Assembly (NCBI GenBank): GCA_019429125.1
Contig: JAHYJO010000001.1
Location: 7,088 to 71,087 of the forward strand
DNA length: 64,000 nucleotides
Direction: 5' to 3'
Source: Nanobdellati archaeon
Lineage (GTDB): Archaea > EX4484-52 > GLR71
Below, piece by piece: positions 43,134 through 63,795 of the stretch. A program made the position numbers and the translations under genes. Within the stretch, counting starts at the first letter, position 1; each line of letters begins with the position of its first letter. The notes below the pieces were generated by a model. That model ran no database searches, was not told where the DNA came from, and saw only the letters and a list, made by a program, of their open reading frames with translations.

Positions 43134-43784
43134 TTATCTTAATTTTCTTTTTACTATCTTTGTCCTTGTGAAATCTTCTCGAGCGCGTTCGTCAAGTTTA
43201 GATATTATCATCCTCTTGTCATTGTTGAGGGATGGGATGATGTAGTCTTCAAGCGCTGTTACCTTGCGTCTTGTATTTGCAATCTCTTTCTTTAATATTC
43301 TTGAGTTTGAGTCGATTTCGCCAACTTTTAGAATTAATGGTAAAGTATCCTCAAAAAGTGTTGCTGTGCCGTCAAGCGTGGCATCTGAGTCTGTGATGCT
43401 ATAGCCACGTTCAAGGATTTTTCTTGAGTAGTCGGGGGCATTGATCTTTAACAGGTTGACACCCATTATTTTTTTTTCTGTGAGGTCTGTGTTTTTTGCT
43501 TTCTGGACGGATGCACCCAAGTATCGTGTCTCTATGTGACCTAAGCTTACTTGCGCATCTTTTAATATGTTAAATGCTTCAGTCATCTTTTTTTGCATGG
43601 TTTCTTTTTTTTGTATACTGTCTTTTGACATTGAGAAATATTCAAGTATTAATGCTTCGTTTTTTTCTTCAAGAAGTGTGTGGCCGGTTCTGCTCAGGTC
43701 AAGTGTTTCACTTATTCGTTTTAGTTCAGTTCGTGTAGGTTTTGATTGTTCTCTAATCATGTCGTTCATACCAGAATCTTTCAA
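43134..43784 (-). CDS. atpD: A/V-type ATP synthase subunit D.
   Basis: 216 aa. N-terminal ...PTRTELKRISETLDLSRTGHTLLEEKNEALILEY pattern. Overlaps atpB. Confidence 0.8.
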   Translation of the reverse strand: MKDSGMNDMIREQSKPTRTELKRISETLDLSRTGHTLLEEKNEALILEYFSMSKDSIQKKETMQKKMTEAFNILKDAQVSLGHIETRYLGASVQKAKNTDLTEKKIMGVNLLKINAPDYSRKILERGYSITDSDATLDGTATLFEDTLPLILKVGEIDSNSRILKKEIANTRRKVTALEDYIIPSLNNDKRMIISKLDERAREDFTRTKIVKRKLR

Positions 43785-45108
43785 TTATGTCTTTGTCAAT
43801 TTTTGTTAGTTCTTCTTTTGGAAGAATCTTCAGTAGTTTCCAGCCAAGGTCAAGGGTGTCTCTAATACTTCTTTTTTGGTTCTGGCTTATGAATTCCCTG
43901 TCAATTGCGGTCTTGAATTTGAGATATTTTTTGTCAATGTCAGTTAGTGCGTCTTCACCTATTATGGCTTTTAATTGTTCAAGTTTTTTTCCTCGCGTGT
44001 AGAATGCATAAATTTGGTCTGATACAGCTTTATGGTCTTCTCGTGTCTTATCTAATCCTATGCCATGGTGCATCATTCTTGAAAGTGAGGGTATGATATC
44101 TATCGGAGGGAAGATGTTTTGCCTGTGAAGAGCGGGTGATAAGAGTATCTGGCCTTCTGTGATGTATCCTGTTAAATCAGGTATGGGGTGCGTGATGTCA
44201 CCTTCGGGCATGGTGAGAATAGGAATCTGGGTAATTGAACCTTTCTTGTCTTTTATTCTGCCTGTTCTTTCATAGATTGATGCTAAGTCTGAATAAAGGT
44301 ATGGAGGGTAACCTCGTCTGCTTGGTACTTCTTCTTTTGATGCGGATATCTCTCTTAGTGCATTTGCGTAGTTTGTCATGTCTGAAAGTATGACCACTAC
44401 GTTTCGGTCTTGTTCCCATGCGAAATATTCGGCAGTTGCAAGTGCTGCGCGAGGGGTGACTATACGTTCTATTACAGGGTCGCCTGCAAGGTTGGCAAAG
44501 ACTATTATGTTTTCCAGCGCTCCTGTCTTTTCAAATTCTGAGACAAAATAGTTCAGTTCGTCATTTGTGACGCCTATTGCTGCAAATATTACAAGATCAG
44601 ATTTTATGTTTTTGGCTATGTCTGCGGCTAGCTTGTTGTGGGGCATGCCGTTCTCTGAGAAGATGGGCAGTTTCTGTCCTCTGACAAGACTTAAGAGTCC
44701 GTCAATTGAGGACAGACCTGTTTCTATGAATTTGTTGGGTACATCGCGCGAGGAGGGGTTTATAGGGTTGCCGTTTATGCTTATTTTTTGGTTAGGTATG
44801 AATTTCATACTTTTTGGTCTTCCAAGACCGTCAAAGATGCCACCTACCATGTCAGGCCCCACACCAATTGTGAAACTTTTGCCTAAGAACCGTATCTTTG
44901 TGCCTTTGGTGTCAATGTCTTGCGTGCCTTCAAAGACTTCGATTATTGCCAAGTCATCTTTTAGTTCAAGTACCTGCCCAGTACGTTCTGTGCCGTCTTC
45001 AAGTATGATCTTGACCAGTTCATGGTATCTTGCGCCGTTTATGCCTTCGGCTATAATCAGAGGTCCTGCAACTTTAGTTATGGTCTCGTATTCTTTCAAG
45101 TTATTCAC
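43753..45108 (-). CDS. atpB: A/V-type ATP synthase subunit B.
   Basis: 451 aa. Typical B-subunit sequence (…TKVAGPLIIAEG…, SRRGYPPYLYSDLASIYERTG). Confidence 0.9.
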   Translation of the reverse strand: MNNLKEYETITKVAGPLIIAEGINGARYHELVKIILEDGTERTGQVLELKDDLAIIEVFEGTQDIDTKGTKIRFLGKSFTIGVGPDMVGGIFDGLGRPKSMKFIPNQKISINGNPINPSSRDVPNKFIETGLSSIDGLLSLVRGQKLPIFSENGMPHNKLAADIAKNIKSDLVIFAAIGVTNDELNYFVSEFEKTGALENIIVFANLAGDPVIERIVTPRAALATAEYFAWEQDRNVVVILSDMTNYANALREISASKEEVPSRRGYPPYLYSDLASIYERTGRIKDKKGSITQIPILTMPEGDITHPIPDLTGYITEGQILLSPALHRQNIFPPIDIIPSLSRMMHHGIGLDKTREDHKAVSDQIYAFYTRGKKLEQLKAIIGEDALTDIDKKYLKFKTAIDREFISQNQKRSIRDTLDLGWKLLKILPKEELTKIDKDIIERFWYERHD

Positions 45109-46837
45109 CTTTATCTAAAAGGTCGTCAAGGTCTATCATGTCGGTTTTACCTAACAGTGTTTCTTCAATTTTTCGTGTTAGTGCGCCAAATTCGTATCTT
45201 TTTTCAAATTTCATGCCGGCAATATTTTCAATGAGGTCTGTGTCTAATATATCTTTTAATTCTTTGTCGTGTTCAAGTGCTATAAGTCCCATTTCATAGT
45301 AGATTGCAAATATCTTTAGCATCTCGTATTGCTTATCAAATCTACAGTACATGTCAACTTCGTGGAATGCGCTCTGTTGTAGGAAATTTTCGCGGAACAG
45401 TTCTGCAACTTTTAATAAGAACCGGTCTTTGTCTTCCAAGCCTTCATAACCTACAAGACGGACTATTTTTTCCAGTTCTTTTTCGTTTTGTAGTATTGTC
45501 ATGAGTAAGTCTCGTAGTTCTGACCAGTCTTCGTAATTGTCGTCATTTATCTTTTTTAGGTCGTCTGTGTAATGTGAATAGCTTTCAAGCCAGTCAATGG
45601 CTGGGTAGTGGCGCATGTAGGCAAGGTCGCTTCTTAGTGCCCAGAAACAGCGGGTTATACTTTTTGTGGCCTGAACTACAGGTTCTGAAAAGTCACCTCC
45701 TGGGGGGGATACTGTACCCATGATGGTTAGGCTGCCAACGTTATCGTTTAATGTTTTTACAATGCCTGACCGTTCATAGAATGATGTTATTTTAGAGGCA
45801 AGGTATGCAGGATAACCTTCGTCACCAGGCATTTCTTCAAGCATGCCTGATATTTCTCTGACTGCTTCGGCCCAACGTGATGTTGAGTCAGCAATGAGTA
45901 GAACGTTTAAGCCCATGTCACGGTAATATTCGCCTATTGTTGTTGCAAGGTATATGCTTGAGATTCTGGCTGAGACTGGCATGTTTGAGGTGTTTGCAAT
46001 TATTATGCTTCTTTCCATTATGCTTTTTCCGGTTTTAATATCTTTTATTTTCGGGAAGCTTGAGAGGACGTCTGCACATTCGTTGCCACGCTCACCAACA
46101 AGTGCCATGATGACTATGTCGGCGTCTGCGAATTTGGCTATGGTCTGTGTGGTTATGGTCTTTCCACAACCGAACCCGCCAGGGATTGCGGCACAACCAC
46201 CTTTTGCGATGGGAAACATGGTGTCTATTACTCTCTGACCTGTAATTAGCATGTCTTTCGGTGTATATTTTTTCTTGAATGGTCTTTTTGTGTAGACGGG
46301 CCAGGTGATCTGCATGGTAAGGTCTAATGTCTTGTCTTTGGTTTTTAATGTTCCGAAAATGTCTGTCACTGTGTAATTGCCGTCTTTTATTTTTATTGTG
46401 CCATCAGTTGTCGCAAATATCTTGTGGGTGATGTTGTCTGTCTCTTTTACTTCAGCTATTATGTCGCCTTTGTTTACGGGACCGTCTTTTGTTTTTTTAA
46501 GGTTCCATATTGTTTTTTGGTTTAGTGGGTCTTTTGAAATGCCTTTTTCTATGAATTGGTTCATGTCTTTCAGTGGTCTTTGGAGACCGTCAAATATACT
46601 TCCTATTAGTCCCGGGCCTAAAGTTGCGGTAATCTGTGTGCCTACTGATTTTACAGGGTCACCAATTTTTAGTCCGTCTGTCTCTTCAAATGCCTGGATT
46701 ATGGCTTTACTATTTTCTAGTTTTATGATTTCACCTATCAGTTTCTCGTTTCCTATGAGTACTTTTGAGTTCATCTTTGCGTTTTCAAGGTCTCTTGCTT
46801 CAATTATGTGACCTGCAATCCGTGTTATTTTTCCCAT
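45101..46837 (-). CDS. atpA: A/V-type ATP synthase catalytic subunit A.
   Basis: 578 aa. P-loop GGFGCGKT and typical A-subunit conservation. 8-nt overlap with atpB. Confidence 0.9.
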   Translation of the reverse strand: MGKITRIAGHIIEARDLENAKMNSKVLIGNEKLIGEIIKLENSKAIIQAFEETDGLKIGDPVKSVGTQITATLGPGLIGSIFDGLQRPLKDMNQFIEKGISKDPLNQKTIWNLKKTKDGPVNKGDIIAEVKETDNITHKIFATTDGTIKIKDGNYTVTDIFGTLKTKDKTLDLTMQITWPVYTKRPFKKKYTPKDMLITGQRVIDTMFPIAKGGCAAIPGGFGCGKTITTQTIAKFADADIVIMALVGERGNECADVLSSFPKIKDIKTGKSIMERSIIIANTSNMPVSARISSIYLATTIGEYYRDMGLNVLLIADSTSRWAEAVREISGMLEEMPGDEGYPAYLASKITSFYERSGIVKTLNDNVGSLTIMGTVSPPGGDFSEPVVQATKSITRCFWALRSDLAYMRHYPAIDWLESYSHYTDDLKKINDDNYEDWSELRDLLMTILQNEKELEKIVRLVGYEGLEDKDRFLLKVAELFRENFLQQSAFHEVDMYCRFDKQYEMLKIFAIYYEMGLIALEHDKELKDILDTDLIENIAGMKFEKRYEFGALTRKIEETLLGKTDMIDLDDLLDKGE

Positions 46838-46850
46838 CGGTATTTCCTCA

Positions 46851-47048
46851 TCAATCTAGTTTGATTATAATTTTCCCCTCATCTTCAAGAGTTTCCAGTT
46901 CTTCGGTGAATCTGTCTGCATTAGTCTTGTCTACTATGAATATCTTTTCATCTTTTGCGTCTTTAGGGTTGTCGTAACTGTTTTTAATGCCTGCAAGGTT
47001 GAAACCGGTGACGGTATCTTTAGTGCCTATAATGCATATCATTTCCAA
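46851..47048 (-). CDS. atpF: A/V-type ATP synthase subunit F (short, 65 aa).
   Basis: N-terminal ICIIGTKDTVTGFNLAGI motif. Overlaps atpC. Confidence 0.6.
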   Translation of the reverse strand: MEMICIIGTKDTVTGFNLAGIKNSYDNPKDAKDEKIFIVDKTNADRFTEELETLEDEGKIIIKLD

Positions 47049-47845
47049 ACACTTCTTAAAACGCTCTTTATTAGTTTTGTTTCCATCTCTTTTCTGAACA
47101 TGAACTCAATGTAGAGGCCGATGCCGAATGGGTCAGACATTAGTTGCTGTCTTGCGCGGGCTTCAAGAGTTTTTTGTGAGGTATTTTCGTTGTTATCCTT
47201 GTTGAAGAGGTATGGCTCGGCGCAGTCTTTGCCCAACCTTGATATTGTTTTTTGGTCTATCATTTGTTTGTATGTTTTCACGAAATTTCGGATAGGCTCG
47301 GTTGATATCTTTTCAAGTTCTGCCATGTATCTTTTGTCTAGTGCGTGTTCAAGGTCGGATATTTTTTGTGTCTTTTTATAATTTGTCAAACCTTCCTTAT
47401 ATGCTTGATACCAGAGGGTGTCTTCAAGGCTATTTTCTAGTGTGTTTAGGTCTTTTAGGGTGTCTGAGATATTGTAGATTGCGCCGTAAGCGGTTAGGTC
47501 TTTTTGTATTTGGGTTATGGGTATGTTTGCGCTTAGGCCACGGATTATCAGTTTCAAGTTTTGGAGATCAAATCTGATTAGGTATCGTTTGAAGTCGTCA
47601 GAGTAGCGTTTAGGTAGAAATCCTGTTACTTTGATTAGGTTTTGTATGAGCGCATTGTTTAGGTTTGCTTCAATTTCTTCTAGGTCAGTTGAGGCAAACA
47701 TGGATTCGTATGTTGTGTCTTCAAGGTGTGTGATTAGTTCTTCTTTGGATTTTGCTGTCTGGGTTTCGGTTTTTGTTTCTGGTTTTAAGAGTTTGGAACG
47801 TAGGACGCGGACTCTTGCCGATGCGTATTCAAGGTCAAATATCAT
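47039..47845 (-). CDS. atpC: A/V-type ATP synthase subunit C (268 aa, shorter than typical).
   Basis: Position in the operon and general helical C-subunit-like sequence. Confidence 0.55.
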   Translation of the reverse strand: MIFDLEYASARVRVLRSKLLKPETKTETQTAKSKEELITHLEDTTYESMFASTDLEEIEANLNNALIQNLIKVTGFLPKRYSDDFKRYLIRFDLQNLKLIIRGLSANIPITQIQKDLTAYGAIYNISDTLKDLNTLENSLEDTLWYQAYKEGLTNYKKTQKISDLEHALDKRYMAELEKISTEPIRNFVKTYKQMIDQKTISRLGKDCAEPYLFNKDNNENTSQKTLEARARQQLMSDPFGIGLYIEFMFRKEMETKLIKSVLRSVWK

Positions 47846-48679: not shown

Positions 48680-48917
48680 AATTTAAACATTTTTCACTAA
48701 ATAATATCATTTTTTAAAATTATTCTGTGCTTATTAACTACGTATGGATAAAATATTGAAAAAGTATATGAGTCAGGTTGTGATTGAAAATGCGGGGCCT
48801 GATACAACTGATAATGATGAGTTGGGTACTGATTATATATGTATGATTTTACGGATTCCTATAGCTATGCTTACTGAATATTAAAAGAATAAAAGAGAGG
48901 TTAAAGGTTCTCCTGAT

Positions 48918-49172
48918 TTGGTAGGATTTTGGAAAGATACGGGATTTTATGAGAAGTTGTGCATTATTGCAGAATGTGATTATAGGTATAATTTTGCAAT
49001 TGATGCTTTGGAATTTTTAGGTGGTGAAGTTAGTGGTAAATATCTTGGGATTTTAAATGATAAAACATTACGTGTGGAAATATGTGAGGAATGGTCTGAG
49101 GATTATAGATGTGCTTACACTTTAGATTCTTATCAAAAAACTTTTGATTATTTTGAAGAAGAGTTGTTTTAA
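48918..49172 (+). CDS. Hypothetical protein (84 aa).
   Basis: ORF only. Confidence 0.3.
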   Translation: MVGFWKDTGFYEKLCIIAECDYRYNFAIDALEFLGGEVSGKYLGILNDKTLRVEICEEWSEDYRCAYTLDSYQKTFDYFEEELF

Positions 49173-49375
49173 TTCTAGTTCTGGGCACTTTAAGAACTAT
49201 ATGGTTTCTAAAAAGGTTGTATAGTCTTTTATGTGCATACATATGGTTAAAAATTTAAAAAAGATTGATTTGCATAATAATTAGAATGTATATTTAAAAG
49301 TATTAGATTAGTTTTGTTCAGCATCAAATATACAGATGCTTAGAACCGATTTATATTTTAAATTATAGATATCAT

Positions 49376-50044
49376 TTAAATTATATCTATTTGATACTTT
49401 GCATTTTTATATACAATATCTTTGTATGCTATTGCATCTTCTTCTCTTGTGAAATACTGTGGAAAACTATTTATTTTTGGATTAAGATTTATGCCACCTG
49501 AATCAAGGCTGAATGTCTTATCTTTTTCAGAAGATAATATGTCTAAATCTTTAAGATGTAAAATGATTTGTGTATATAATTTAGAACCTGAGTATTTTTG
49601 AGTATCTATTGAATCTATAAGTTTCCATTTAACAGTTGCTTCTCCTTTATTAAATATTATAGGTTCTTTAACATCATTATATATTTTTTTGAATTCATCT
49701 ATGATTGATTGACAGCATTTTGTATCTATATCAATTCCACTATAGAAGGGGTTATAAAATGGTGGAGGGGTTTGGGTTTCATATTGTTTGGGTATTGGTA
49801 TGTTTAGTTCCTGTTCAAGATATAAAATTATTCTGTTATATAATTCGTTTGGGTCTGTCTGGTCTTTAAGCTCTATAGAATCTATTAGTTTCCAGTCAAC
49901 AATTGCTTTTCCTTTATCGAAGGTTATAGGTTCTGTGACATTATCATATATATTTTTGATGTTATCTAATACTGATTTACAACATGTTTTTTGTGTTGAA
50001 ATTCCGCAGTATATACTAATACTGGGCTTATATTTTTGAGGCAT
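49376..50044 (-). CDS. Hypothetical protein (222 aa) composed of two tandem ~80-aa CC-motif domains.
   Basis: Internal repeat: ...CCKSVLDNIKNIYDNVTEPITFDKGKAIVDWKLIDSIEL... and ...CCQSIIDEFKKIYNDVKEPIIFNKGEATVKWKLIDSIDT... Confidence 0.5.
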   Translation of the reverse strand: MPQKYKPSISIYCGISTQKTCCKSVLDNIKNIYDNVTEPITFDKGKAIVDWKLIDSIELKDQTDPNELYNRIILYLEQELNIPIPKQYETQTPPPFYNPFYSGIDIDTKCCQSIIDEFKKIYNDVKEPIIFNKGEATVKWKLIDSIDTQKYSGSKLYTQIILHLKDLDILSSEKDKTFSLDSGGINLNPKINSFPQYFTREEDAIAYKDIVYKNAKYQIDII

Positions 50045-50056
50045 ATATTAATTAGA

Positions 50057-50338
50057 TTAATTTAAATATAAAAATGTTTTGTATGTATTTGATTTATTTT
50101 TTATATTTTTGCAACAGTATTGTTTATGATGTTTGTTGATGCATATAAGATTATTAATGCAACTCATAAGAATACCAAGATAAAGAATGTTTTTTTCTAA
50201 GCTCATATCTTTTTTTAAAAGCAGTAGGAAGTATGCTATGCTGCTACCTATTGCCGGGCCAACTGGGTCGAAGAACAATCCTGCAACAGGTAACAATGCA
50301 TATAGATAATTGTATCTGTTGTTATTTTTATTTATCAT
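50057..50338 (-). CDS. Small hypothetical protein (93 aa), possibly membrane.
   Basis: ORF only. Confidence 0.25.
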   Translation of the reverse strand: MINKNNNRYNYLYALLPVAGLFFDPVGPAIGSSIAYFLLLLKKDMSLEKNILYLGILMSCINNLICINKHHKQYCCKNIKNKSNTYKTFLYLN

Positions 50339-50381
50339 ATTGTGTATTTAGGTGATTTGTGTTTATATGTTGTAGAAAATG

Positions 50382-50933
50382 TTAATTGTTGAGCATTTCT
50401 GCAATGCGTTTTTCTAGATTTTCTCGTTTTTTTTCAAGGTGCAGGTCAAAACTTTTGTTGATGTGTACTTTTTTGTCTGTGAATATGAATCCACCTATGA
50501 TGTCTGTGTGTGTTGGTTTTATCTTTTTTTTTGTGAGCATGTCTTCAGCTTTCTTGTCACCTTTTTTTATTGATACAGTCATGCCTTTTTTGTAGTTGTC
50601 ATTGAATGTTTTTTCAAGAAATGAGTCATAACTTTTAGATGTTATGAATTTTATTATGCTGTCATCTATCAATTTGTCAATCAGTTCTTTTCGTCGTTCC
50701 ATTATCTTTAGTTTTTGTTTGAGGCGCGCACGACCAAGCATCTGTTTTTCGGTTGTAAGGATATCTGTTTCAGATTCTTCTTTAATTTTTTGTTCTTCTT
50801 TTGCCATACTGGTTGCAAGGTCAAGCTTTATCAGGTTCAACTTTTCTGTGTTTTGGTGCTGTATCTGGTATATTTTTTCATCTGCTTCTCTTTTTATTTC
50901 AGAGAGGAGATCTTCGGCATGCATAGGAGTCAC
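50382..50933 (-). CDS. atpE: A/V-type ATP synthase subunit E.
   Basis: 183 aa, charged helical N-terminus. Fits E subunits in size and composition. Positioned in the canonical order between K and C. Confidence 0.65.
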   Translation of the reverse strand: MTPMHAEDLLSEIKREADEKIYQIQHQNTEKLNLIKLDLATSMAKEEQKIKEESETDILTTEKQMLGRARLKQKLKIMERRKELIDKLIDDSIIKFITSKSYDSFLEKTFNDNYKKGMTVSIKKGDKKAEDMLTKKKIKPTHTDIIGGFIFTDKKVHINKSFDLHLEKKRENLEKRIAEMLNN

Positions 50934-51061
50934 TATATTATTTGTGGTGTTTTCTGTATATATAGGTTGTATTGGTTATGGTTTTTTTTGATTTGTAGTG
51001 GGTGGGAAGTAGTGAAAAGAATAAGGTTTTTAAAGATTTATATTATATTAATTGATATTGA

Positions 51062-51724
51062 TTGGTGATTGTTTTGAGTGATACTGACGATAAATGGGAT
51101 AGTTCAGAACTTGGAGATTATATGCATAATTTAAGTAATATGGTAAACTTTCTGATTAAAGAACATTTAAAGACATATTATCCTCCTGGAGGTTTACAAT
51201 TTTCAGATTTATCTATAGATCTAAAGATGGAGCCTAAACCTATTATTCAAAATACATATGAGTCACATCAAAAGAATATTTCTTATGAACAGGTTAAATT
51301 GAGTATATATGCAATTACTGAATGGTATAATTTATTTACAACAGTACTTGAGGCAGATGATGTTGAGACTATTTATGGCATGATTGGTTTTGATGAGTCG
51401 TCAGATTATTCAAATCTTGAGAAGGTTGTAGGGACTGATAAGATAACTACATTTGATATGTTTAATTATTTAGACCCTATAGATGTTGAAGAAAGTAAGT
51501 ATGATGGGTATTTATCTGATATGTTTAATCATTCTGATTTAAAAATAGTTGTAGATAGTGATTATTCTGAACCCCATAAGAATTGTATTTGTTTTAATCT
51601 TTTTCCACAGGACTGTTCAAAAAATATTTTAGTTATTTATCGAGTTGATACATGTGATGTGTTTGTGAATACTAGGGGTTATACTAATCTGAATCCAAAT
51701 TATATAATTGATAAGTTTTTCTGA
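51062..51724 (+). CDS. Hypothetical protein (220 aa).
   Basis: ORF only. Confidence 0.4.
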   Translation: MVIVLSDTDDKWDSSELGDYMHNLSNMVNFLIKEHLKTYYPPGGLQFSDLSIDLKMEPKPIIQNTYESHQKNISYEQVKLSIYAITEWYNLFTTVLEADDVETIYGMIGFDESSDYSNLEKVVGTDKITTFDMFNYLDPIDVEESKYDGYLSDMFNHSDLKIVVDSDYSEPHKNCICFNLFPQDCSKNILVIYRVDTCDVFVNTRGYTNLNPNYIIDKFF

Positions 51725-51737
51725 GGGTTTAAGTTTC

Positions 51738-51977
51738 TCAAACTGTCACCAATCCGAAACCGAATGCTATCAGAATTATTGCAATTGCAAACCCGTAAAG
51801 TGCTTGAGTCTCTGTTAATACAGCCATGGCAATGGATTTCCCAAATAGTTTTTCATTTTCTGCGGTTGCACCAATTGCTGCCGCTACTGCTTTGCCCTGG
51901 CCTATGCCTGACCCGGCAGCGGCAAAACCTACTGCGATTCCTGCGCCAATTGCTATTAGACCAATCTGTTCAAGCAT
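51738..51977 (-). CDS. atpK: A/V-type ATP synthase proteolipid subunit K (c), copy with the conserved ion-binding Glu (…LTETQALYG…).
   Basis: 79 aa, two TM helices, GSGIGQG loop, E in the E-x-x-A-(I/L)-Y-G motif (codon gag). Confidence 0.85.
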   Translation of the reverse strand: MLEQIGLIAIGAGIAVGFAAAGSGIGQGKAVAAAIGATAENEKLFGKSIAMAVLTETQALYGFAIAIILIAFGFGLVTV

Positions 51978-51992
51978 TTTTTATCATCTCTA

Positions 51993-52247
51993 TTAAATAA
52001 TTATGAGGCCGAAGCCGAAAGCAATCAATATGAAGGCGATTGCAAAACCGTAGAGCGCCTGGGTCTGGACAAGGACCGACATCGCAAGCATCTTTCCGAA
52101 TGCGTTCTGGTTCTTGGCTGTCCTCTCTATCGCTTCTCGTGTGGTTGTCCCTTGACCTATGCCTGATCCGGCAGATGCTACACCCACTGCAATTGCAGCG
52201 CCAATGGCTATAAGTCCAAGAGCTGCAAATTGTGTTTCAGCTATCAT
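51993..52247 (-). CDS. atpK: A/V-type ATP synthase proteolipid subunit K paralog with Gln replacing the conserved ion-binding Glu (…LVQTQALYG…).
   Basis: 84 aa. Aligns along its full length with the neighbouring copy. Codon cag at the position of gag. Confidence 0.85.
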   Translation of the reverse strand: MIAETQFAALGLIAIGAAIAVGVASAGSGIGQGTTTREAIERTAKNQNAFGKMLAMSVLVQTQALYGFAIAFILIAFGFGLIII

Positions 52248-52322
52248 ATAGATTACTACCTGATTATTTTTTGGTGTTATATGTATAAATAAGTTATAAC
52301 AAAAAGAAAATAAAAAATATTT

Positions 52323-52700
52323 TTATCTTGCAGTTTCGTCAGATTCCATAAGGCCTAATACATTCCCTTCAGGGTCCCTGAATACGGCCATGTAACCGAT
52401 GGTCGGGATGGGGGTCTTGGGCATGAGTATTGTGCCATGGTTATCTTTTATTTTCGTTATGTAGATGTTAATTGAAAAAACCTCAATTGTGTTTCTTGCC
52501 AGATTAGCATCTTTTTCTCTTTTTACTAATCCACCATCTATGCCAGGCATATCTGGATTACCTGTCATGATCTGCCAGTATTCCATAGGGCCTTTCCATT
52601 TCTTAAATGTCCAGCCGAAGACATCTTTATAGAATTTTATGGCTCTTTCTGGTGTCTCTGTATCTATCTCAAAGTGAACAACTCTTGGCATTTTTATCAC
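52323..52700 (-). CDS. VOC / glyoxalase-bleomycin-resistance family protein.
   Basis: 125 aa. MIKMPRVVHFEIDTETPERAIKFYKDVFGW... is typical of the VOC fold. Confidence 0.65.
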   Translation of the reverse strand: MIKMPRVVHFEIDTETPERAIKFYKDVFGWTFKKWKGPMEYWQIMTGNPDMPGIDGGLVKREKDANLARNTIEVFSINIYITKIKDNHGTILMPKTPIPTIGYMAVFRDPEGNVLGLMESDETAR

Positions 52701-52931
52701 CTTTTATCAAGTTAATTAAGGTTATAATATATATTATGTAATATATATTCCAACGTATATAAACGTGTATTTATTATCTTGTTTGAAATATAGCAAACTC
52801 CGAAAGTAATTTCGTATTTGTATCAAATATTTATGTTATGGATACCTTTTTTTCAGAAAATTAATTGAAAAACATTGTTGGTTTGCTATAATTTAATCTT
52901 ATTATTTTGTTAGTATGTAGGACTAATTGAT

Positions 52932-53687
52932 ATGGAGTCTGTTTTTTTTGTAAAGATTAAATGTAATATTTATATTATGTCGTTTTCAAATAAATGTATG
53001 CGATATTCAATTGTGGGTAAAGATTTTGTCATTTGCAGTGATATGGATAAGTTATTGATTGATAGTGGTTTTATCTGTGACAATGATAATCCTGAGGTTG
53101 TATTTTCGTGTGGTGGCGATGGGGCTATACTTGTCTCTGAAAGATTGTATCCTGGAATTCCTAAAGTAACAATTAGATATAGTGACATGGGGCATAAATG
53201 CGTATTTGATAAGGCTGATATTGAAAATGTTATTGAGTGCATAAAAAATAATGATTATAAAATTCGTGAATATATAAAACTTGAAGCTGTCTGTGACGGT
53301 GAAAAAGGTGTGGCATCAAATGAGGTGCAGGTACATAACAAGAGACCCACACGGGCTGTAAGGTTCAATGTCTATGTCAACGGCAAGATTTTATATGATA
53401 ATGTCGTAGGGGATGGTATTGTAATTTCTACTCCTTTCGGGGCGAGCGCATATTACAGGTCTGTTGGTGGCAAACAGTTTGATAAAGGGATTGGTATTGC
53501 ACTGAACAATCCGGTCGACAAGAAATCTAGTATGGTTGTTTCAGATTCGTCTGTGATTGAGATTGAGATGTTGCGAGAAGTTGGGCAGGTATTTTGTGAC
53601 AATCATTGTGAGGGTATGATGCTTCTTGCGCCGGGTAAAAAGGTATTTATTAAGAAATCTGAGGGGACTGCTAAATTTATTGTTTGA
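52932..53687 (+). CDS. ppnK: NAD kinase.
   Basis: GGDGAIL motif and NVVGDGIVISTPFGASAYYRSVGG (NAD-kinase DGxxxxTPxGSTAY-like). Confidence 0.8.
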   Translation: MESVFFVKIKCNIYIMSFSNKCMRYSIVGKDFVICSDMDKLLIDSGFICDNDNPEVVFSCGGDGAILVSERLYPGIPKVTIRYSDMGHKCVFDKADIENVIECIKNNDYKIREYIKLEAVCDGEKGVASNEVQVHNKRPTRAVRFNVYVNGKILYDNVVGDGIVISTPFGASAYYRSVGGKQFDKGIGIALNNPVDKKSSMVVSDSSVIEIEMLREVGQVFCDNHCEGMMLLAPGKKVFIKKSEGTAKFIV

Positions 53688-53735
53688 TTTTTAAAGGATT
53701 TATTCATTTTTATATTGTTATAGGGTGTTGATTTT

Positions 53736-54923
53736 ATGGCTGAAGATATTTATCAAAGATCGTTGGATGCGCACAAGCGCGCTAAAGGTAAGATTGCAAT
53801 ACTGCCTAAGATGCCGGTTGCTACAAAAAATGATTTGTCTATAGCTTATACGCCGGGTGTTGCTGAACCTTGCAGGCAGATACATAAAAATTCTGGTTTG
53901 GTTTATGATTATACATCAAAAGGTAATCTTGTGGCTGTCGTGACAGATGGTAGTGCGGTTTTAGGTCTCGGTAACATTGGGCCATTGGCTGCTCTGCCGG
54001 TCATGGAAGGTAAATCTATTCTTTTTAAGGCGTTTGGTGACGTTGATGCGATACCAATTTGTCTTGATACACAAGATGTTGATGAGATTGTTAAGACTGT
54101 TAAGTTAATCGCGCCAACATTTGGTGGTATCAATCTTGAGGATATATCTGCACCGCGATGTTTTGAGGTTGAGAGTCAGCTTAAGGCTGAGCTTGATATA
54201 CCAGTGTTCCATGATGATCAGCACGGAACGGCTATTGTTGTACTTGCTGCGCTTATTAATGCGTCAAAGGTTGTGGGTAAAGATATACATAAGATGAATA
54301 TTGTCATGTCTGGGGCAGGGGCTGCGGGCATAGCTATAGCTAATATTCTTTTGGATTATAGTATCGGTGACATGATTGTGTGCGATTCTGTGGGTGCAAT
54401 TTATTTAGGCCGAAAAGATAATATGAACACTGAGAAGGAAATTTTGGCAAAGATTACGAATCGCGGTCTTAAAGACGGTAAACTTGGTTCTGTAATTTCA
54501 GGTGCTGATGTCTTTATAGGCGTATCAAAACCAGGTGTCCTCACAAAAGAGATGGTTGCAACTATGGCAACTGACGCTATCGTATTTGCTATGGCTAATC
54601 CTGTGCCTGAAATTATGCCGGATGTTGCAAAAGAAGCAGGCGCAAAAGTTGTGGGCACTGGTCGGTCGGATTTTCCTAATCAGATAAACAATGTATTAGC
54701 GTTTCCTGGTATATTTCGCGGTGCATTGGACGTGCGCGCAAGCGACATAAATAGTGAGATGAATCTTGCGGCTGCAATGGCTATTGCTGGTCTTGTTGAT
54801 GATTCAAAGTTAGATGCTGAGCATGTTATTCCTTTGGCGACAGATAAGAATGTTGCAAAAGCTGTTGCAAAAGCTGTGTCTGTAGCAGCAAGAAAAAGTG
54901 GGGTTGCTCGGGTTTTGGATTGA
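53736..54923 (+). CDS. NAD(P)-dependent malic enzyme (short archaeal/bacterial type).
   Basis: 395 aa. YTPGVAEPC, Rossmann GAGAAGIA, VFHDDQHGTA, ANPVPE motifs. Confidence 0.85.
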   Translation: MAEDIYQRSLDAHKRAKGKIAILPKMPVATKNDLSIAYTPGVAEPCRQIHKNSGLVYDYTSKGNLVAVVTDGSAVLGLGNIGPLAALPVMEGKSILFKAFGDVDAIPICLDTQDVDEIVKTVKLIAPTFGGINLEDISAPRCFEVESQLKAELDIPVFHDDQHGTAIVVLAALINASKVVGKDIHKMNIVMSGAGAAGIAIANILLDYSIGDMIVCDSVGAIYLGRKDNMNTEKEILAKITNRGLKDGKLGSVISGADVFIGVSKPGVLTKEMVATMATDAIVFAMANPVPEIMPDVAKEAGAKVVGTGRSDFPNQINNVLAFPGIFRGALDVRASDINSEMNLAAAMAIAGLVDDSKLDAEHVIPLATDKNVAKAVAKAVSVAARKSGVARVLD

Positions 54924-54973
54924 TTTGTGGATGATGGTATTTTTTTAGTTTTTTATTCATTTTAAGTTATAAT

Positions 54974-55843: not shown

Positions 55844-56200
55844 GGATTTATTTTTTATTCGTGATTGAATTTCTTTCTTATTGAAAGGATTATAAAGCCG
55901 TATTTTTCTATATCTTCTTTTGTGTGATATTTCTCCATGTCTTTTGTGTTGAACTTGTAGAGAATCTCACAGTCTTGGGTCTTGTCTGTAAGTGTATCTG
56001 TTCCGTTTTTTTGTTCTTTCAATACTAATGTGTCGTCTTCTTTGCAATCAAAATCTGCAAGTCTTACTTCAAATCGTTTTGCGCTCTCACTAATTGCATT
56101 GAAATATTTTTATTAAACCATTTTTTCAATTTTCATAGTTTTCACTTTTATATTTATTATTTCTTATTTTGATTTGTGGTATTATCTTTATTACTTGTAA

Positions 56201-57991
56201 TTATCTACTATATTTGTTCTTGTTCTCTAACGGTTTGAATTCTTCACCGCCTGATTCGTAGAATCTTTCAAAGAATTCCACATAGTGTAATCGCATTGAA
56301 TGGACAAATGCGCTCACAACGTTTAATGCCATGTTTAAGCTGTGGCCGATAACAAAGACTAGTCCTGCAAGGATGATTGATAATTTTGCGGCTGCAGTCA
56401 CACCCATGTTTATCACGAACTGGAGCCAGGAGGTTGCAACGGCCAAGGCCATAAGACGTATGTAGGATATCCAGGATCCGAAAAATGAGGGTACTGATAA
56501 TATCCCTGTTGGGCCGTCTTTTGATCTGTAGATGATGGTTGCTATTATTAATATGCATCCGATTGATTTAGGTATTCCTTGTCCTATGACTAGTATTGTT
56601 ACTCCTATTTCAAGCGATACCCAGGATAGGGGGTCAAGGATATTTTTGCTTTTTGATTTTATCTTTGAATATAGGTCAAGCGCTAGGCCGAAATTTATGT
56701 GGACTAGACCTATAGCTAAAGATACTTTTAAGATGGTTATTGGGTCGCGGAGCGCGTCAAAAACTGAGACGAAACCTAAGAAGTCACCGAATATGCTCCC
56801 GAAAATGAGACCTGCAAAAATTGTTGCGACAGAAGACACTATCATAATATAGGATAATGCTTTGAGATCTTTGTCGTCTGTCTTTAAATATGCGAAAAGC
56901 GATGCTGCAAGGAGTATGAGACCGTAGGCCATATCTGTCAACATTATCGCGAAAAATATTGGGAATGCGACGGCGATAAATATTGTGGGGTCAATGCCTT
57001 CATATTCTGGAAGGCCGAACCATCTTGTCAATTTTTCAAAAGGTTGCGCAAAATTCGGGTTTTTCAGTTTTATTGGTGGTTCTGTTTTTGGTTTTTGTGT
57101 GTATACTACTATGTTTTCTATAGTTTCAAGCTCTTTTATGTTTGTAGTGGGTATCCAGCCTCGTAAGACAAATGTCTTTTCTGTATGGTTCAATAGTTTT
57201 TCTTTTGAAAGGCGGGTTTTTATGTTTTCCCATCGCTCTTCGTAGGCTAGGATTTTGTTTTTTTCTTTTTGAATAAGTTTTTCTGATTCTTTTATTTTGA
57301 GCGTCTCTTTGTCTATGGTGTCTAGTTCTGTTTTGGTTTCTTTTATGTTATCTTTTATTGTTTTTGTTGCGTCTATTTTTTCAAGATACATGTATTTTTT
57401 AATATCAATCCAGATCTCTTTTTTTGCTATGAATATGATATATTTCGTATCTTCTGTTTCATCTATGACCTTTAGGTCGCAGTTATCTTTTATCTTGTCA
57501 AAATCTTTTGTTTTGACTGATGCTATTGAACTTATGTATTTTTTTGTATCTGAAAATGCATTGTCTTTTATGTTGACGTGTGCGAAATGGTTTAAGAAAT
57601 CTAGTTTTTTTTCTGTTGCATTTTTTTTGTCACTAAATATTTTTTCACTTTCAAGGATGTTTTTTGCATTTTTAAATAGTGGTTCTATGTATATTTTTGA
57701 TACTGTTGCAAAAGCTATGTCTTCTGTTTCTGGTATTTGTATTATTTTTGTATCTTTTTTAAATATGTTCTTTTTTGTGTCAAGTACTTTTTTAATCGTT
57801 CTTATATGGTCAAGATTTATGACTGTCTCGTGTATGAGTTCTTTTGGTGTTTCTAAATTGCCTGTATTTTCCGTTTTGGTCAAGTGTATGGTGCCTAAAT
57901 GTTGCAATCTTTTCAAGATATCATCTTTCTCCTTTCGTAGCCCAAGGATGTATATCTCTTCCATCTTTTCGGGTCTGAACATAAATATCAC
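56201..57991 (-). CDS. atpI: A/V-type ATP synthase subunit I (a-subunit).
   Basis: 596 aa. MIFMFRPEKMEEIYILGL N-terminus, soluble coiled N-half, polytopic C-half. Confidence 0.8.
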   Translation of the reverse strand: MIFMFRPEKMEEIYILGLRKEKDDILKRLQHLGTIHLTKTENTGNLETPKELIHETVINLDHIRTIKKVLDTKKNIFKKDTKIIQIPETEDIAFATVSKIYIEPLFKNAKNILESEKIFSDKKNATEKKLDFLNHFAHVNIKDNAFSDTKKYISSIASVKTKDFDKIKDNCDLKVIDETEDTKYIIFIAKKEIWIDIKKYMYLEKIDATKTIKDNIKETKTELDTIDKETLKIKESEKLIQKEKNKILAYEERWENIKTRLSKEKLLNHTEKTFVLRGWIPTTNIKELETIENIVVYTQKPKTEPPIKLKNPNFAQPFEKLTRWFGLPEYEGIDPTIFIAVAFPIFFAIMLTDMAYGLILLAASLFAYLKTDDKDLKALSYIMIVSSVATIFAGLIFGSIFGDFLGFVSVFDALRDPITILKVSLAIGLVHINFGLALDLYSKIKSKSKNILDPLSWVSLEIGVTILVIGQGIPKSIGCILIIATIIYRSKDGPTGILSVPSFFGSWISYIRLMALAVATSWLQFVINMGVTAAAKLSIILAGLVFVIGHSLNMALNVVSAFVHSMRLHYVEFFERFYESGGEEFKPLENKNKYSR

Positions 57992-58311
57992 TTTTTATCT
58001 TCTGTGTTAAGGTATTTTATTATGAAGGTGAGTAGTTCTTTCTTTTTGTCTTTATAGTTCTCTTCAAGTAGCCTTATGTTTTTGTCTGTCTCCTTGTTCA
58101 TTGCGTGTATCTCGTTTTCAACAAGTTTCAATCGTTCTGCCTTTTCTATCTCTATCTTTGTCTTGACAGTTTTTTTGTGCTCTTTAAGTTTTTTTATATT
58201 TGTTATCTTTTCAGATTTCAATCTAAGGTTCCAGCTTTTTTCAAGGAGAGTTATGTTTTTCTCCATTTTATTTTCAGTTTCTGTGATTTTTTCTATGGTG
58301 CGCTCTATCAT
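57988..58311 (-). CDS. atpH: A/V-type ATP synthase subunit H (107-aa coiled-coil).
   Basis: K/E-rich coiled coil. 4-nt overlap with atpI. First in the canonical H-I-K-E-C-F-A-B-D order. Confidence 0.6.
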   Translation of the reverse strand: MIERTIEKITETENKMEKNITLLEKSWNLRLKSEKITNIKKLKEHKKTVKTKIEIEKAERLKLVENEIHAMNKETDKNIRLLEENYKDKKKELLTFIIKYLNTEDKK

Positions 58312-63765: not shown

Positions 63766-63795
63766 GAGGTTCTTATTTATAATTATTAAAAAAAG

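What the first reader, a model, noticed from the sequence alone, without database searches (positions are those of the whole stretch)
51738..52247. Tandem proteolipid (K/c-subunit) paralogues, one lacking the ion-binding carboxylate (Glu->Gln)
The two adjacent 79- and 84-aa genes align over their full length. At the conserved E-x-x-A-(I/L)-Y-G motif of TM2, the downstream copy has LTETQALYG (codon gag) and the upstream copy has LVQTQALYG (codon cag). Gln cannot be reversibly protonated or coordinate Na+ like Glu. A hetero-oligomeric c-ring containing inactive protomers would alter the ion/ATP ratio, as described for a few bacteria and archaea with multi-hairpin or mixed rings. Alternatively, one copy is non-functional.
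Basis: partly seen in the sequence, partly recalled or inferred. Interest (0 to 1): 0.6.

Follow-up and report, generated by a model that had tools for sequence, protein, structure and literature searches.

The report
Two rotor-ring genes, one ion-blind
A small uncultured DPANN archaeon encodes two adjacent copies of the ATP synthase rotor-ring subunit; the upstream copy has permanently lost the ion-carrying glutamate yet is kept under strong selection, so it looks like an unfused version of the "half the ion sites" rotor of V-type ATPases.

Summary
Two minus-strand genes, K1 (51993-52247, 84 aa) and K2 (51738-51977, 79 aa), are 68% identical PF00137 proteolipids. K2 has Glu56 (GAG) and K1 has Gln61 (CAG) at the column that aligns with Glu139 of Enterococcus hirae NtpK.

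The Gln is not a sequencing error or a sign of decay:
- Six independent assemblies carry the same K1(Q)-K2(E) tandem, all with CAG.
- K1 dN/dS is 0.05-0.14 at dS 0.5-2.
- K1 diverged asymmetrically after the duplication (18-21 unique changes against 1-3 in K2), and 8 of the 15 fixed differences lie at the cytoplasmic loop.

K1 keeps the neighbour-donated Na+ ligands (Leu59, Thr62, Gln63, Tyr66) and K2 keeps Gln27 and Glu56. Together they reproduce the NtpK site from two separate polypeptides. K1's "Q....QT" motif matches the inactive hairpin of Acetobacterium woodii c1. All other A-type ATPase genes are present, including subunit I with its Arg.

Most likely K1 is a non-translocating protomer of a mixed K ring that lowers the ion/ATP ratio of a Na+-coupled A-ATPase. 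This is inferred, not shown, and the stoichiometry is unknown. Hadarchaeia/MSBL1 independently carry stand-alone carboxylate-less K hairpins. I rate it a new variant of a known kind.

The parts
51993..52247 (-). K1: single-hairpin A-type ATPase proteolipid (subunit K/c) paralogue, 84 aa, motif Q32....Q61-T62-Q63...Y66, lacking the ion-binding carboxylate
   Evidence: ORF. PF00137 at 62.9 bits. AF2 helical hairpin with pLDDT 91.4. Foldseek match to T. thermophilus K, rmsd 1.2 A, TM 0.8. Orthologues P0002-P0005 and L003 all keep LVQTQALYG. dN/dS 0.05-0.14.
52065..52067 (-). CAG codon for Gln61 of K1, at the position of the ion-binding Glu
   Evidence: Read directly. CAG in 6 of 6 lineages. Aligns to the NtpK Glu139 column and to Gly63 of hairpin 1.
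51978..51992 (-). 15-nt K1-K2 spacer (TAGAGATGATAAAAA) with a Shine-Dalgarno-like GAGATGAT; too short for a promoter, so the two genes are inferred to be co-transcribed
   Evidence: The spacer is 9-18 nt in all six lineages.
51738..51977 (-). K2: canonical single-hairpin proteolipid, 79 aa, with the full predicted Na+ motif Q27....E56-T57-Q58...Y61
   Evidence: ORF. PF00137 at 74.3 bits. Gln27 and Glu56 align with NtpK Gln110 and Glu139. The protein is 91-100% identical across the six lineages, dN/dS 0-0.065.
51810..51812 (-). GAG codon for Glu56 of K2, the ion-binding carboxylate
56201..57991 (-). Subunit I (a-type stator subunit) with the conserved Arg in WISYIRLMALAVAT
   Evidence: PF01496. 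Translation. Alignment with relatives.
57988..58311 (-). Putative subunit H, assigned by position only (107 aa, overlaps the start of I by 4 nt)
   Evidence: No family hit. The same 107-aa gene precedes I in L001.
50382..50933 (-). Subunit E (peripheral stalk)
   Evidence: PF01991 at 26.9 bits.
47039..47845 (-). Subunit C (d-type, rotor socket on the K ring); short at 268 aa
   Evidence: PF01992 at 101.9 bits, covering profile positions 2-210 of 339.
46851..47048 (-). Subunit F; short at 65 aa
   Evidence: ORF. Weak NCBIfam V-type F hits, all below the curated cut-offs.
45101..46837 (-). Catalytic subunit A (P-loop GGFGCGKT)
43753..45108 (-). Subunit B
43134..43784 (-). Subunit D (central stalk)
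   Evidence: PF01813 at 136.6 bits.

Best explanation
K1 and K2 arose by a lineage-specific tandem duplication of the single proteolipid gene of an A-type (A1AO) rotary ATPase in a DPANN archaeon. K2 kept the ancestral sequence and the full predicted Na+-binding set (Gln27, Glu56, Thr57, Gln58, Tyr61). K1 diverged quickly, replaced the essential Glu with the permanently neutral, roughly isosteric Gln61, remodelled its cytoplasmic loop, and was then held under purifying selection. The most likely mechanism has four parts. (1) Both hairpins assemble into one mixed K ring. (2) K1 fills a ring position and passes the stator Arg of subunit I without taking up or releasing an ion. (3) K1 still donates Leu59 (carbonyl), Thr62, Gln63 and Tyr66 to the Na+ site formed by Gln27 and Glu56 of a neighbouring K2. 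(4) The ring therefore carries fewer ions per turn than it has hairpins, which lowers the ion/ATP ratio. If K1 and K2 alternate 1:1, the pair is a non-covalent equivalent of the double-hairpin, one-site V-type proteolipid such as E. hirae NtpK, in the same N-to-C order. In an organism of a group that generally lacks respiratory chains, the enzyme would most plausibly work as an ATP-driven Na+ pump with a high 'gear'. What is shown: the paralogy, the position and conservation of Gln, selection on both genes, ligand retention, and a complete ATPase gene set. What is inferred: co-assembly, stoichiometry, ion specificity and the direction of operation.
For: Paralogy: 68% identity, E = 2e-29; both PF00137. 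The Gln sits at the carboxylate column of solved rings. The K1(Q)-K2(E) tandem recurs in six independently assembled lineages, always with CAG. Purifying selection acts on K1 (dN/dS 0.05-0.14) and K2 (0-0.065) at dS 0.5-2. Divergence is asymmetric: 18-21 changes unique to K1 against 1-3 unique to K2, Tajima relative-rate p = 1e-3 to 7e-5. The K1 clade has 100% bootstrap and sits on a long branch within the DPANN K group. Of 15 fixed differences, 8 lie in residues 35-47 at the end of helix 1 and the loop. K1 residues Leu59, Thr62, Gln63 and Tyr66 match NtpK Leu61, Thr64, Gln65 and Tyr68, and K2 Gln27 and Glu56 match Gln110 and Glu139 (ligand list from PMC2359735). K1's 'Q....QT' is the motif reported for the non-binding hairpin of A. 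woodii and C. aceticum c1, against 'Q....ET' for binding hairpins (PMC7911925). In relatives, 24 of 121 fused multi-hairpin K proteins have Gln in the first hairpin followed by Glu hairpins, so a Gln hairpin upstream of Glu hairpins is a recurrent working design. K1 is a confident helical hairpin superposing on ring subunits. Subunits H?, I (Arg present), E, C, F, A (P-loop), B and D are all in the window. The 9-18 nt spacer with an SD-like sequence argues for co-expression. Doubling of c followed by loss of one site is the accepted route to lower ion/ATP ratios (PMC9171764). Most DPANN genomes lack electron transport chains (PMC6349945).
Against: There are no expression, proteomic or structural data, so co-assembly is inferred from homology and linkage alone. 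Stoichiometry is open: in A. woodii, tandem co-transcribed c genes still give a 1:9 ring (PMC9171764), so adjacency does not imply 1:1. K1 evolves several-fold faster than K2, which also fits a looser, accessory role. K1 keeps the helix-1 Gln32 that all 24 fused Gln-type first hairpins have lost; the reason is unexplained and could mean the K1 site still binds something. Only six fairly close lineages are known (A subunit about 88% identical within the clade). Neither the JGI metagenome scan nor the GTDB scan found more. Na+ specificity rests on a motif only.
Confidence: 0.66

Rival explanations
1. K1 is a rare, symmetry-breaking ring member, present at one or a few copies per ring like A. woodii c1 or eukaryotic c''. 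It would serve ring assembly or docking of the central-stalk subunit C rather than halving the ion/ATP ratio. This is a sub-variant of the mixed-ring model with a different stoichiometry and purpose.
For: In A. woodii, tandem c1/c2/c3 genes give a 1:9 ring (PMC9171764). Eight of the 15 fixed K1/K2 differences lie at the end of helix 1 and in the cytoplasmic loop and introduce charges: K1 has TTREAIERTAKxQ where K2 has AVAAAIGATAENE. That is the surface that faces the central stalk in A/V-ATPases (established knowledge).
Against: K1 retains every neighbour-donated Na+ ligand in all six lineages. That fits routine pairing with K2 sites, although it does not exclude a low copy number. Sequence alone cannot discriminate.
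Confidence: 0.3
2. K1 works outside the rotor ring. It could form its own oligomer or act as an assembly factor, membrane regulator or inhibitor of the ATPase.
For: K1 evolves faster than K2. In Hadarchaeia the analogous carboxylate-less hairpin is encoded about 25 kb from the ATPase operon, between a tRNA synthetase gene and an IF-2B gene. Operon linkage is therefore not required for such genes.
Against: K1 keeps the inner-helix Gly/Ala packing motif, the TQ..Y ligands and almost the whole of helix 2 identical to K2. That is expected if it packs against K2 in a ring. It is immediately upstream of K2 with a 9-18 nt spacer in all six lineages. No non-ring role is known for a PF00137 hairpin (own knowledge).
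Confidence: 0.1
3. K1 is a non-functional duplicate on its way to loss, or the Gln is a sequencing or assembly artefact.
For: Loss of the essential carboxylate is what an inactivating mutation would look like. K1 evolves faster than K2.
Against: Six independent assemblies carry intact K1 with CAG. dN/dS is 0.05-0.14 while synonymous sites are near saturation. 61 of 84 residues are invariant. The two copies are only 64% identical in DNA, so a collapsed-repeat artefact is excluded.
Confidence: 0.03
4. K1 is still an ion carrier using altered chemistry. Either Gln61 is enzymatically deamidated to Glu after translation, or the Gln32/Gln61/Thr62 pocket binds Na+ or water without a carboxylate.
For: K1 keeps the helix-1 Gln32 in all six lineages, whereas all 24 fused Gln-type first hairpins surveyed have replaced it.
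Against: The inactive hairpin of A. woodii/C. aceticum c1 also keeps 'Q....QT' and is described as unable to bind H+ or Na+ (PMC7911925). No deamidase candidate was seen next to the genes. An uncharged site has no counter-charge for Na+ and cannot interact electrostatically with the stator Arg (established mechanism).
Confidence: 0.04

Closest known systems
Enterococcus hirae V-type Na+-ATPase NtpK (PDB 2BL2): double-hairpin proteolipid with one Na+ site
   Same: The order of modules is the same. The first hairpin lacks a carboxylate but supplies Leu61, Thr64, Gln65 and Tyr68; the second supplies Gln110 and Glu139. K1 matches the first set and K2 the second, residue for residue, in gap-free alignments (ligands from PMC2359735). 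NtpK is the best PDB hit for both proteins.
   Different: NtpK is a single 156-aa polypeptide. Here the two hairpins are separate genes with stop codons between them. NtpK hairpin 1 has Gly at the carboxylate column, where K1 has Gln. NtpK hairpin 1 lacks the helix-1 Gln, which K1 keeps.
Acetobacterium woodii / Clostridium aceticum F1FO hybrid rotor (c1 plus c2/c3; PDB 4BEM)
   Same: A mixed ring is built from products of tandem c genes. The inactive hairpin carries 'Q....QT' and the active hairpins 'Q....ET', exactly as in K1 and K2 (PMC7911925; PMC9171764).
   Different: There the inactive hairpin is the second half of a fused V-type-like c1, the enzyme is a bacterial F-type, and the stoichiometry is 1:9. 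Here the inactive hairpin is a free-standing single-hairpin protein of an archaeal A-type enzyme, and the stoichiometry is unknown.
Archaeal multi-hairpin A1AO proteolipids with reduced numbers of sites (Pyrococcus two hairpins/one site; Methanocaldococcus jannaschii three hairpins/two sites)
   Same: The outcome is the same: fewer carboxylates than hairpins. Relatives retrieved here show the patterns Q-E, Q-E-E, Q-E-E-E and up to Q-E11, with 'QTQ' in the first hairpin. The review context is in PMC9171764 and PMC2359735.
   Different: All of those are gene fusions. The P. furiosus and M. jannaschii details are from my own knowledge and were not re-checked here. None of the 24 fused Gln-type first hairpins keeps the helix-1 Gln.
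Stand-alone carboxylate-less K hairpins of Hadarchaeia/MSBL1
   Same: These are single-hairpin PF00137 proteins of 76-79 aa with 'PQTQ(V/A)(V/I)YG' in place of 'PETQ'. They coexist with a canonical Glu-type K in the same genome. In GCA_048620715.1, contig JBMCET010000002.1, the Gln-type gene lies at about 70.5 kb and the operon K at about 95.3 kb.
   Different: The origin is independent: the Hadarchaeia Q and E types group together at 92% bootstrap, apart from the DPANN K1/K2. The gene is not linked to the ATPase operon. Some members have also lost the helix-1 Gln (P0271 has Ala, P0248 has Met).
Eukaryotic V-ATPase c/c'/c'' ring
   Same: It is a heteromeric proteolipid ring from paralogous genes, with one carboxylate per two or more hairpins. 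K2 aligns with the carboxylate-bearing second hairpin of the 16-kDa c subunit.
   Different: All eukaryotic members are fused proteins of four or more helices. The relationship to K1/K2 is analogy plus distant homology, not orthology.

Membership tests
ATP synthase subunit c/K proteolipid (Pfam PF00137) | Profile match above the curated gathering score | tested here: met
   K1 scores 62.9 bits and K2 74.3 bits against a cut-off of 24, both over profile positions 1-60 of 60.
ATP synthase subunit c/K proteolipid (Pfam PF00137) | Two-helix transmembrane hairpin fold | tested here: met
   The AF2 model of K1 has mean pLDDT 91.4, with helices 4-45 and 47-78 and a break at residues 60-61. Foldseek gives rmsd 1.2 A and TM 0.8 to T. 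thermophilus K, and all top hits are c rings. K2 was not modelled but is 68% identical.
ATP synthase subunit c/K proteolipid (Pfam PF00137) | Ion-binding carboxylate (Glu/Asp) in the middle of helix 2 | tested here: not met
   This row is scored for K1. K1 has Gln61 in all six orthologues. K2 meets the feature: Glu56 aligns with NtpK Glu139. K1 is therefore a family member by homology and fold, but not a functional ion carrier of the canonical kind.
ATP synthase subunit c/K proteolipid (Pfam PF00137) | Encoded with the other rotary ATPase subunits | tested here: met
   I, E, C, F, A, B and D lie on the same strand within about 15 kb. The cluster is interrupted by unrelated genes.
ATP synthase subunit c/K proteolipid (Pfam PF00137) | Assembles into the membrane rotor ring | not testable with these tools
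   This needs purification, MS or cryo-EM, or at least multimer structure prediction, which is not available here.
V-type (16-kDa, double-hairpin) proteolipid | Two hairpins fused in one polypeptide | tested here: not met
   The ORFs are separate. Beyond the K1 stop codon itself, the window spacer TAG AGA TGA TAA AAA holds three further in-frame stops. Spacers are 9-18 nt in all lineages.
V-type (16-kDa, double-hairpin) proteolipid | One carboxylate per two hairpins, in the C-terminal hairpin | tested here: met
   This holds at the level of the gene pair: Gln in the upstream gene and Glu in the downstream gene in six of six lineages.
V-type (16-kDa, double-hairpin) proteolipid | The first hairpin still supplies the Thr/Gln/Tyr and backbone ligands to the site | tested here: met
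   K1 Leu59, Thr62, Gln63 and Tyr66 correspond to NtpK Leu61, Thr64, Gln65 and Tyr68, and are invariant in K1 orthologues.
F/V hybrid rotor (A. woodii type) | Inactive hairpin with Q....QT alongside active Q....ET hairpins, from tandem genes | tested here: met
   K1 has Gln32....Gln61-Thr62 and K2 has Gln27....Glu56-Thr57. The motif definition is from PMC7911925.
F/V hybrid rotor (A. woodii type) | The inactive hairpin is part of a fused c1, in an F1FO enzyme | tested here: not met
   K1 is a free single hairpin. The enzyme is A-type (PF01496 I, PF01992 C, PF01813 D, PF01991 E).
F/V hybrid rotor (A. woodii type) | A mixed ring demonstrated physically | not testable with these tools
   No experimental data are available for this uncultured lineage.
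Na+-translocating c/K subunits | Complete ligand set: Gln (helix 1), Glu and Thr/Ser (helix 2), and the stabilising Tyr | tested here: met
   K2 has Gln27, Glu56, Thr57 (plus Gln58) and Tyr61. The criteria are from PMC2359735 and PMC7911925. This predicts Na+ coupling but does not prove it.
Na+-translocating c/K subunits | Na+-dependent ATPase activity or Na+ protection from DCCD | not testable with these tools
   This is a biochemical assay.

The most novel reading that the evidence does not exclude
K1 and K2 assemble in strict 1:1 alternation, forming a non-covalent V-type proteolipid. This would be a living example of 'duplication and site loss without fusion'. It would show that the drop in ion/ATP ratio that separates V-type from A/F-type rotors can evolve before, and independently of, gene fusion. 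With the independent Hadarchaeia/MSBL1 case, it would mean that heteromeric single-hairpin rings with silent protomers are an overlooked, recurrent archaeal strategy for tuning the bioenergetic gear ratio.
Probability: 0.3. Interest if true: 0.78.

Novelty: new variant of a known kind. Interest (0 to 1): 0.6.

Why it matters
The number of ion-carrying carboxylates per rotor turn sets the ion/ATP ratio. That ratio determines whether a rotary ATPase can make ATP at low driving force or pump against steep gradients. [quoted passage not shown] All characterised 'silent' hairpins are covalently tied to an active one, which fixes the stoichiometry.

Here the silent hairpin is a separate, selected gene. 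This raises three questions that can be tested directly:
- How is ring stoichiometry and order controlled without a covalent link?
- Did site loss precede fusion?
- What is the ATPase for in DPANN archaea, a group that generally lacks respiratory chains?

There is also a practical point for annotation. Both genes are labelled simply 'V-type ATP synthase subunit K', so such silent paralogues are invisible in current annotation. This includes the Hadarchaeia/MSBL1 ones, one of which is named 'hypothetical protein'.

Tried and rejected
- Exact look-up of K1 in the assembly index found nothing. The identical protein is nevertheless in the protein collection as P0001, 'DPANN group archaeon'.
- The word-indexed search with K1 gave only 6 hits. 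The K2 search was needed to reach the wider family.
- The all-against-representatives search was dominated by multi-hairpin proteins whose repeated domains add up in score. K1's own family is collapsed into a K2-like 50% cluster (P0009), so that library cannot count Gln-type single hairpins. It did reveal P0180 and P0248.
- Three other 'single-hairpin' non-Glu hits (P0249, P0236, P0255) have aberrant C-termini. I rejected them as probable frameshifted or truncated double hairpins.
- The JGI metagenome scan found no close K1 relatives. The GTDB scan found only L003.
- Stop-codon read-through producing a fused K1-K2 was considered, because K2 is in frame with K1 in all lineages. It was rejected as a general mechanism: the window, L001, L003 and L023 spacers contain further in-frame stops.
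- The bacterial sigma-70 and terminator scan was uninformative for an archaeon.
- NCBIfam gave only sub-threshold hits to K models, because those equivalog models are built on longer proteins.
- Seven literature searches found no description of a free-standing carboxylate-less K hairpin. The library lacks most subscription papers, and Matthies et al. 2014 was not held, so absence of a prior report is not proven.
- The 220-aa ORF on the opposite strand between K2 and E (51062-51724) has no family hit and gave no lead.
Full report
**What is in the sequence.** On the minus strand the window carries two adjacent short ORFs. K1 is 51993-52247 (84 aa) and lies upstream of K2, 51738-51977 (79 aa). 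They are 68% identical over 75 gap-free residues (E = 2e-29). Both match Pfam PF00137 (ATP synthase subunit C) over the whole model, at 62.9 and 74.3 bits against a cut-off of 24. K2 reads ...AVLTETQALYGF... with GAG for Glu56 (plus strand ctc at 51810-51812). K1 reads ...SVLVQTQALYGF... with CAG for Gln61 (ctg at 52065-52067).

**Is the column the ion site?** Yes.
- The best solved-structure match for both proteins is the Na+-binding double-hairpin NtpK of Enterococcus hirae.
- K2 aligns without gaps to NtpK residues 89-153. This places K2 Gln27 on Gln110 and K2 Glu56 on Glu139.
- K1 aligns without gaps both to that second hairpin (Gln61 on Glu139) and to the first hairpin, residues 16-77. 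In the first-hairpin alignment K1 Leu59, Gln61, Thr62, Gln63 and Tyr66 fall on NtpK Leu61, Gly63, Thr64, Gln65 and Tyr68.
- Mulkidjanian et al. (PMC2359735) list Glu139, Gln110, Thr64, the Leu61 carbonyl and Gln65 as the Na+ ligands, with Tyr68 as the stabilising residue.
- K1 Gln61 also aligns with the Glu of the 'PET' motif of the Thermus thermophilus K subunit.
- An AlphaFold2 model of K1 is a confident helical hairpin (pLDDT 91.4) with a break at residues 60-61. It superposes on T. thermophilus K at 1.2 A and on F-type c rings.

**Is the Gln real and maintained?** Yes.
- K1 is 100% identical to a protein deposited as 'V-type ATP synthase subunit K [DPANN group archaeon]'. Four further cluster representatives at 83-88% identity all read LVQTQALYG.
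- I retrieved their contigs and one GTDB representative: L001, L002, L020/L021, L023/L024 and L003. L003 is a cold-seep MAG; the CSMAG prefix belongs to the cold-seep catalogue of PMC10491686.
- In every case an 82-84-aa Gln-type gene is followed after 9-18 nt by a 79-aa Glu-type gene. All six lineages use CAG.
- Pairwise dN/dS is 0.05-0.14 for K1 and 0-0.065 for K2, at dS of about 0.5-2. 61 of 84 K1 residues and 72 of 79 K2 residues are invariant.
- The two copies share only 64% DNA identity, so a collapsed-repeat or strain-merging artefact is excluded.
- Among 118 aligned homologues, 112 have Glu. The only Gln-bearing sequences are K1 and its orthologues.

**Origin of the pair.**
- K1 is most similar to its own K2 (66% over the trimmed alignment). 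It is 58-62% identical to the K proteins of the nearest lineages that show a single K gene (L013, L014/L015, L017).
- K2 is 78-86% identical to those single-K proteins.
- Relative-rate counts give 18-21 changes unique to K1 against 1-3 unique to K2 (p = 1e-3 to 7e-5).
- In a neighbour-joining tree the K1 orthologues form a 100%-supported clade on a long branch inside the DPANN K group.
- K2 therefore kept the ancestral sequence. K1 changed quickly and was then frozen, which is the signature of neofunctionalisation.
- L017 has an uninterrupted H-I-K-E-C-F-A-B-D operon with one K. L015 has no K gene upstream of its K.
- The catalytic A subunit is about 88% identical within the K1-bearing clade and 52-66% identical to these outgroups. 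The duplication is therefore younger than that split. A K1 encoded elsewhere in the outgroup genomes cannot be excluded.

**Where K1 differs from K2.**
- Fifteen positions are fixed-different. Eight of them lie in residues 35-47, the end of helix 1 and the cytoplasmic loop.
- There K1 reads TTREAIERTAKxQ where K2 reads AVAAAIGATAENE, and the charge pattern is inverted.
- The remaining differences include Gly18Ala in the inner-helix packing motif and Thr-Glu to Val-Gln at the site.
- Helix 2 downstream of the site is almost identical in the two proteins.

**Comparison with fused relatives.**
- I scored the carboxylate column in every hairpin of the 150 best representatives. Of 121 multi-hairpin proteins, 24 have Gln in the first hairpin followed by Glu hairpins (patterns Q-E, Q-E-E, Q-E-E-E, up to Q-E11). 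Another 21 have Gly, as in NtpK.
- A Gln 'blind' hairpin upstream of active hairpins is thus a common, working design when fused.
- None of those 24 keeps the helix-1 Gln, whereas K1 keeps Gln32 in all six lineages.
- The resulting K1 motif, Q....QT, is the one reported for the non-binding hairpin of the c1 subunit of Acetobacterium woodii and Clostridium aceticum. The binding hairpins there carry Q....ET (PMC7911925).

**The rest of the machine.**
- The window encodes subunit I, with the essential stator Arg in WISYIRLMALAVAT conserved with relatives.
- It also encodes a putative H (assigned by position only), E, a short C (268 aa), a short F (65 aa), A with P-loop GGFGCGKT, B and D.
- These genes are scattered in four minus-strand blocks over about 15 kb, separated by unrelated genes. 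The layout is shared with L001 and L003.

**Mechanism proposed.**
- Rotary mechanism (established knowledge): each ring carboxylate releases and rebinds an ion at the stator Arg, and it crosses the lipid phase in neutral, ion-bound form.
- A Gln at that position is always neutral. It can cross both the lipid and the stator interface without carrying an ion. Carboxylate-less hairpins do the same in V-type rings and in A. woodii c1.
- I therefore propose that K1 is a silent protomer of a mixed K1/K2 ring. It still completes the Na+ site of the adjacent K2 through Leu59, Thr62, Gln63 and Tyr66. The ring then translocates fewer Na+ per turn than it has hairpins.
- If the two alternate, the K1-K2 pair is an unfused NtpK in the same module order.
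- Litty and Muller (PMC9171764) describe duplication of c followed by loss of one site as the route to fewer ions per ATP while keeping ring size.
- Most DPANN genomes lack electron-transport chains (PMC6349945). The simplest physiological reading is therefore an ATP-driven Na+ pump that can build a larger sodium-motive force per ATP.
- Co-assembly, stoichiometry, ion specificity and direction of operation are inferences. In A. woodii, tandem genes give a 1:9 ring, so a low-copy, symmetry-breaking role for K1 is a serious alternative. Its remodelled loop may dock subunit C.

**Rivals.**
- Gene decay or artefact is excluded.
- A role outside the ring is possible but unsupported.
- An altered ion chemistry (deamidation, or carboxylate-free binding) is suggested only by the retained Gln32. 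It is disfavoured by the A. woodii precedent.

**An independent second case.**
- The representative search revealed full-length single hairpins without the carboxylate in other archaea. P0180, P0267, P0271 and P0275 have Gln ('PQTQ'), and P0248 has Met. They are annotated as Hadarchaeia 'subunit K' or as an MSBL1 'hypothetical protein'.
- In three Hadarchaeia MAGs the Gln-type gene stands alone between a tRNA synthetase gene and an IF-2B gene.
- A Glu-type K (P0270) sits in a canonical H-I-K-E-C-F-A-B-D operon. In GCA_048620715.1 it is about 25 kb away on the same contig.
- The Hadarchaeia Gln and Glu types group together (92% bootstrap), apart from the DPANN pair. Silent stand-alone hairpins therefore arose at least twice.

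**Novelty.** Heteromeric rings and silent hairpins are known, in V-type c/c'/c'', NtpK, Pyrococcus-type c and A. woodii c1. What I could not find described is a silent hairpin encoded as its own single-hairpin gene in an A-type ATPase and conserved under selection. Seven full-text searches found nothing, but the library is incomplete. I rate it a new variant of a known kind, of real interest to bioenergetics and rotary-ATPase evolution but not categorically new.

Noticed in passing
window 43134-58311 (minus strand), compared with L017 3560-11688: The A-type ATPase genes are scattered in four blocks: H?-I; K1-K2; E; C-F-A-B-D. They are separated by unrelated genes, some on the opposite strand: NAD kinase, malic enzyme, a glyoxalase-family gene, a HAD hydrolase and several ORFs with no family hit. 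L001 and L003 share the layout, whereas the more distant L017 has one uninterrupted H-I-K-E-C-F-A-B-D operon.
   Followed up: partly
K1-K2 spacers: window 51978-51992; L001 5496-5507; L002 5071-5079; L003 8256-8270; L020 555-563; L023 1158-1175: The spacer is 15, 12, 9, 15, 9 and 18 nt, always a multiple of three, so K2 is in frame with K1 in every lineage. In L002 and L020 the only in-frame stop is K1's own. In the window, L001, L003 and L023 there are further in-frame stops, so read-through fusion is not general. Whether the frame conservation is chance was not resolved.
   Followed up: partly
L025 6001-6234; L028 4755-4991; L046: Hadarchaeia/MSBL1 carry a stand-alone single-hairpin K paralogue with Gln (or Met) in place of the carboxylate. 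It is unlinked to the ATPase operon, which has its own Glu-type K on the same contig. This is an independent origin from the DPANN pair.
   Followed up: partly
window 106-17355 and 19405-25326 (plus strand); also 29098-31929 and 31892-34411: There are giant ORFs of 5749 aa and 1973 aa, and further ORFs of 943 and 839 aa. Their only hits are weak Ig-like, NEW3, MG2 and CarboxypepD_reg matches. They look like the very large surface or adhesion proteins common in DPANN genomes.
   Followed up: partly
window 49376-50044 (minus strand) and 54974-55843 (plus strand): Two ORFs with no family hit each contain an obvious internal duplication. In the 222-aa protein, '...CCKSVLDNIKNIYDNVTEPITFDKGKAIVDWKLIDSIELKD...' repeats as '...CCQSIIDEFKKIYNDVKEPIIFNKGEATVKWKLIDSIDTQK...'. 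In the 289-aa protein, '...GTIYRSHNVDNISKMSVLMTVITNYLSNM' repeats as '...GNVYKSHNVNGYVQMAVLMTVITNYFSDM' (translations; no hits).
   Followed up: no
window 47039-47845 and 46851-47048: Subunit C is short: 268 aa, matching only positions 2-210 of the 339-position Pfam model. Subunit F is only 65 aa. The single-K relatives also have short C subunits (268-291 aa in L013, L014 and L017), so this is a wider DPANN trait and not tied to K1.
   Followed up: partly
window 51062-51724 (plus strand); L001 5767-6318; L002 5323-5868; L020 807-1352; L014 390-905: A conserved ORF of about 171-220 aa with no family hit lies convergent to K2, immediately downstream of it. It is present in all K1/K2 lineages checked, and a 171-aa opposite-strand ORF sits in the same position in the single-K lineage L014/L015. 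Homology between these ORFs was judged from position and length only and was not tested.
   Followed up: no
L028 7201-10533: The Hadarchaeia catalytic A subunit is 1110 aa and carries an intein with a LAGLIDADG endonuclease domain.
   Followed up: no
window 1-64000: GC skew is positive in every 2-kb window (0.075-0.33), whichever strand the genes are on, and G+C is low (28-42%). One tRNA-Ser(GCT) lies at 63795-63881. An anaerobic ribonucleotide reductase NrdD lies at 59741-61741, consistent with an anaerobic lifestyle.
   Followed up: no
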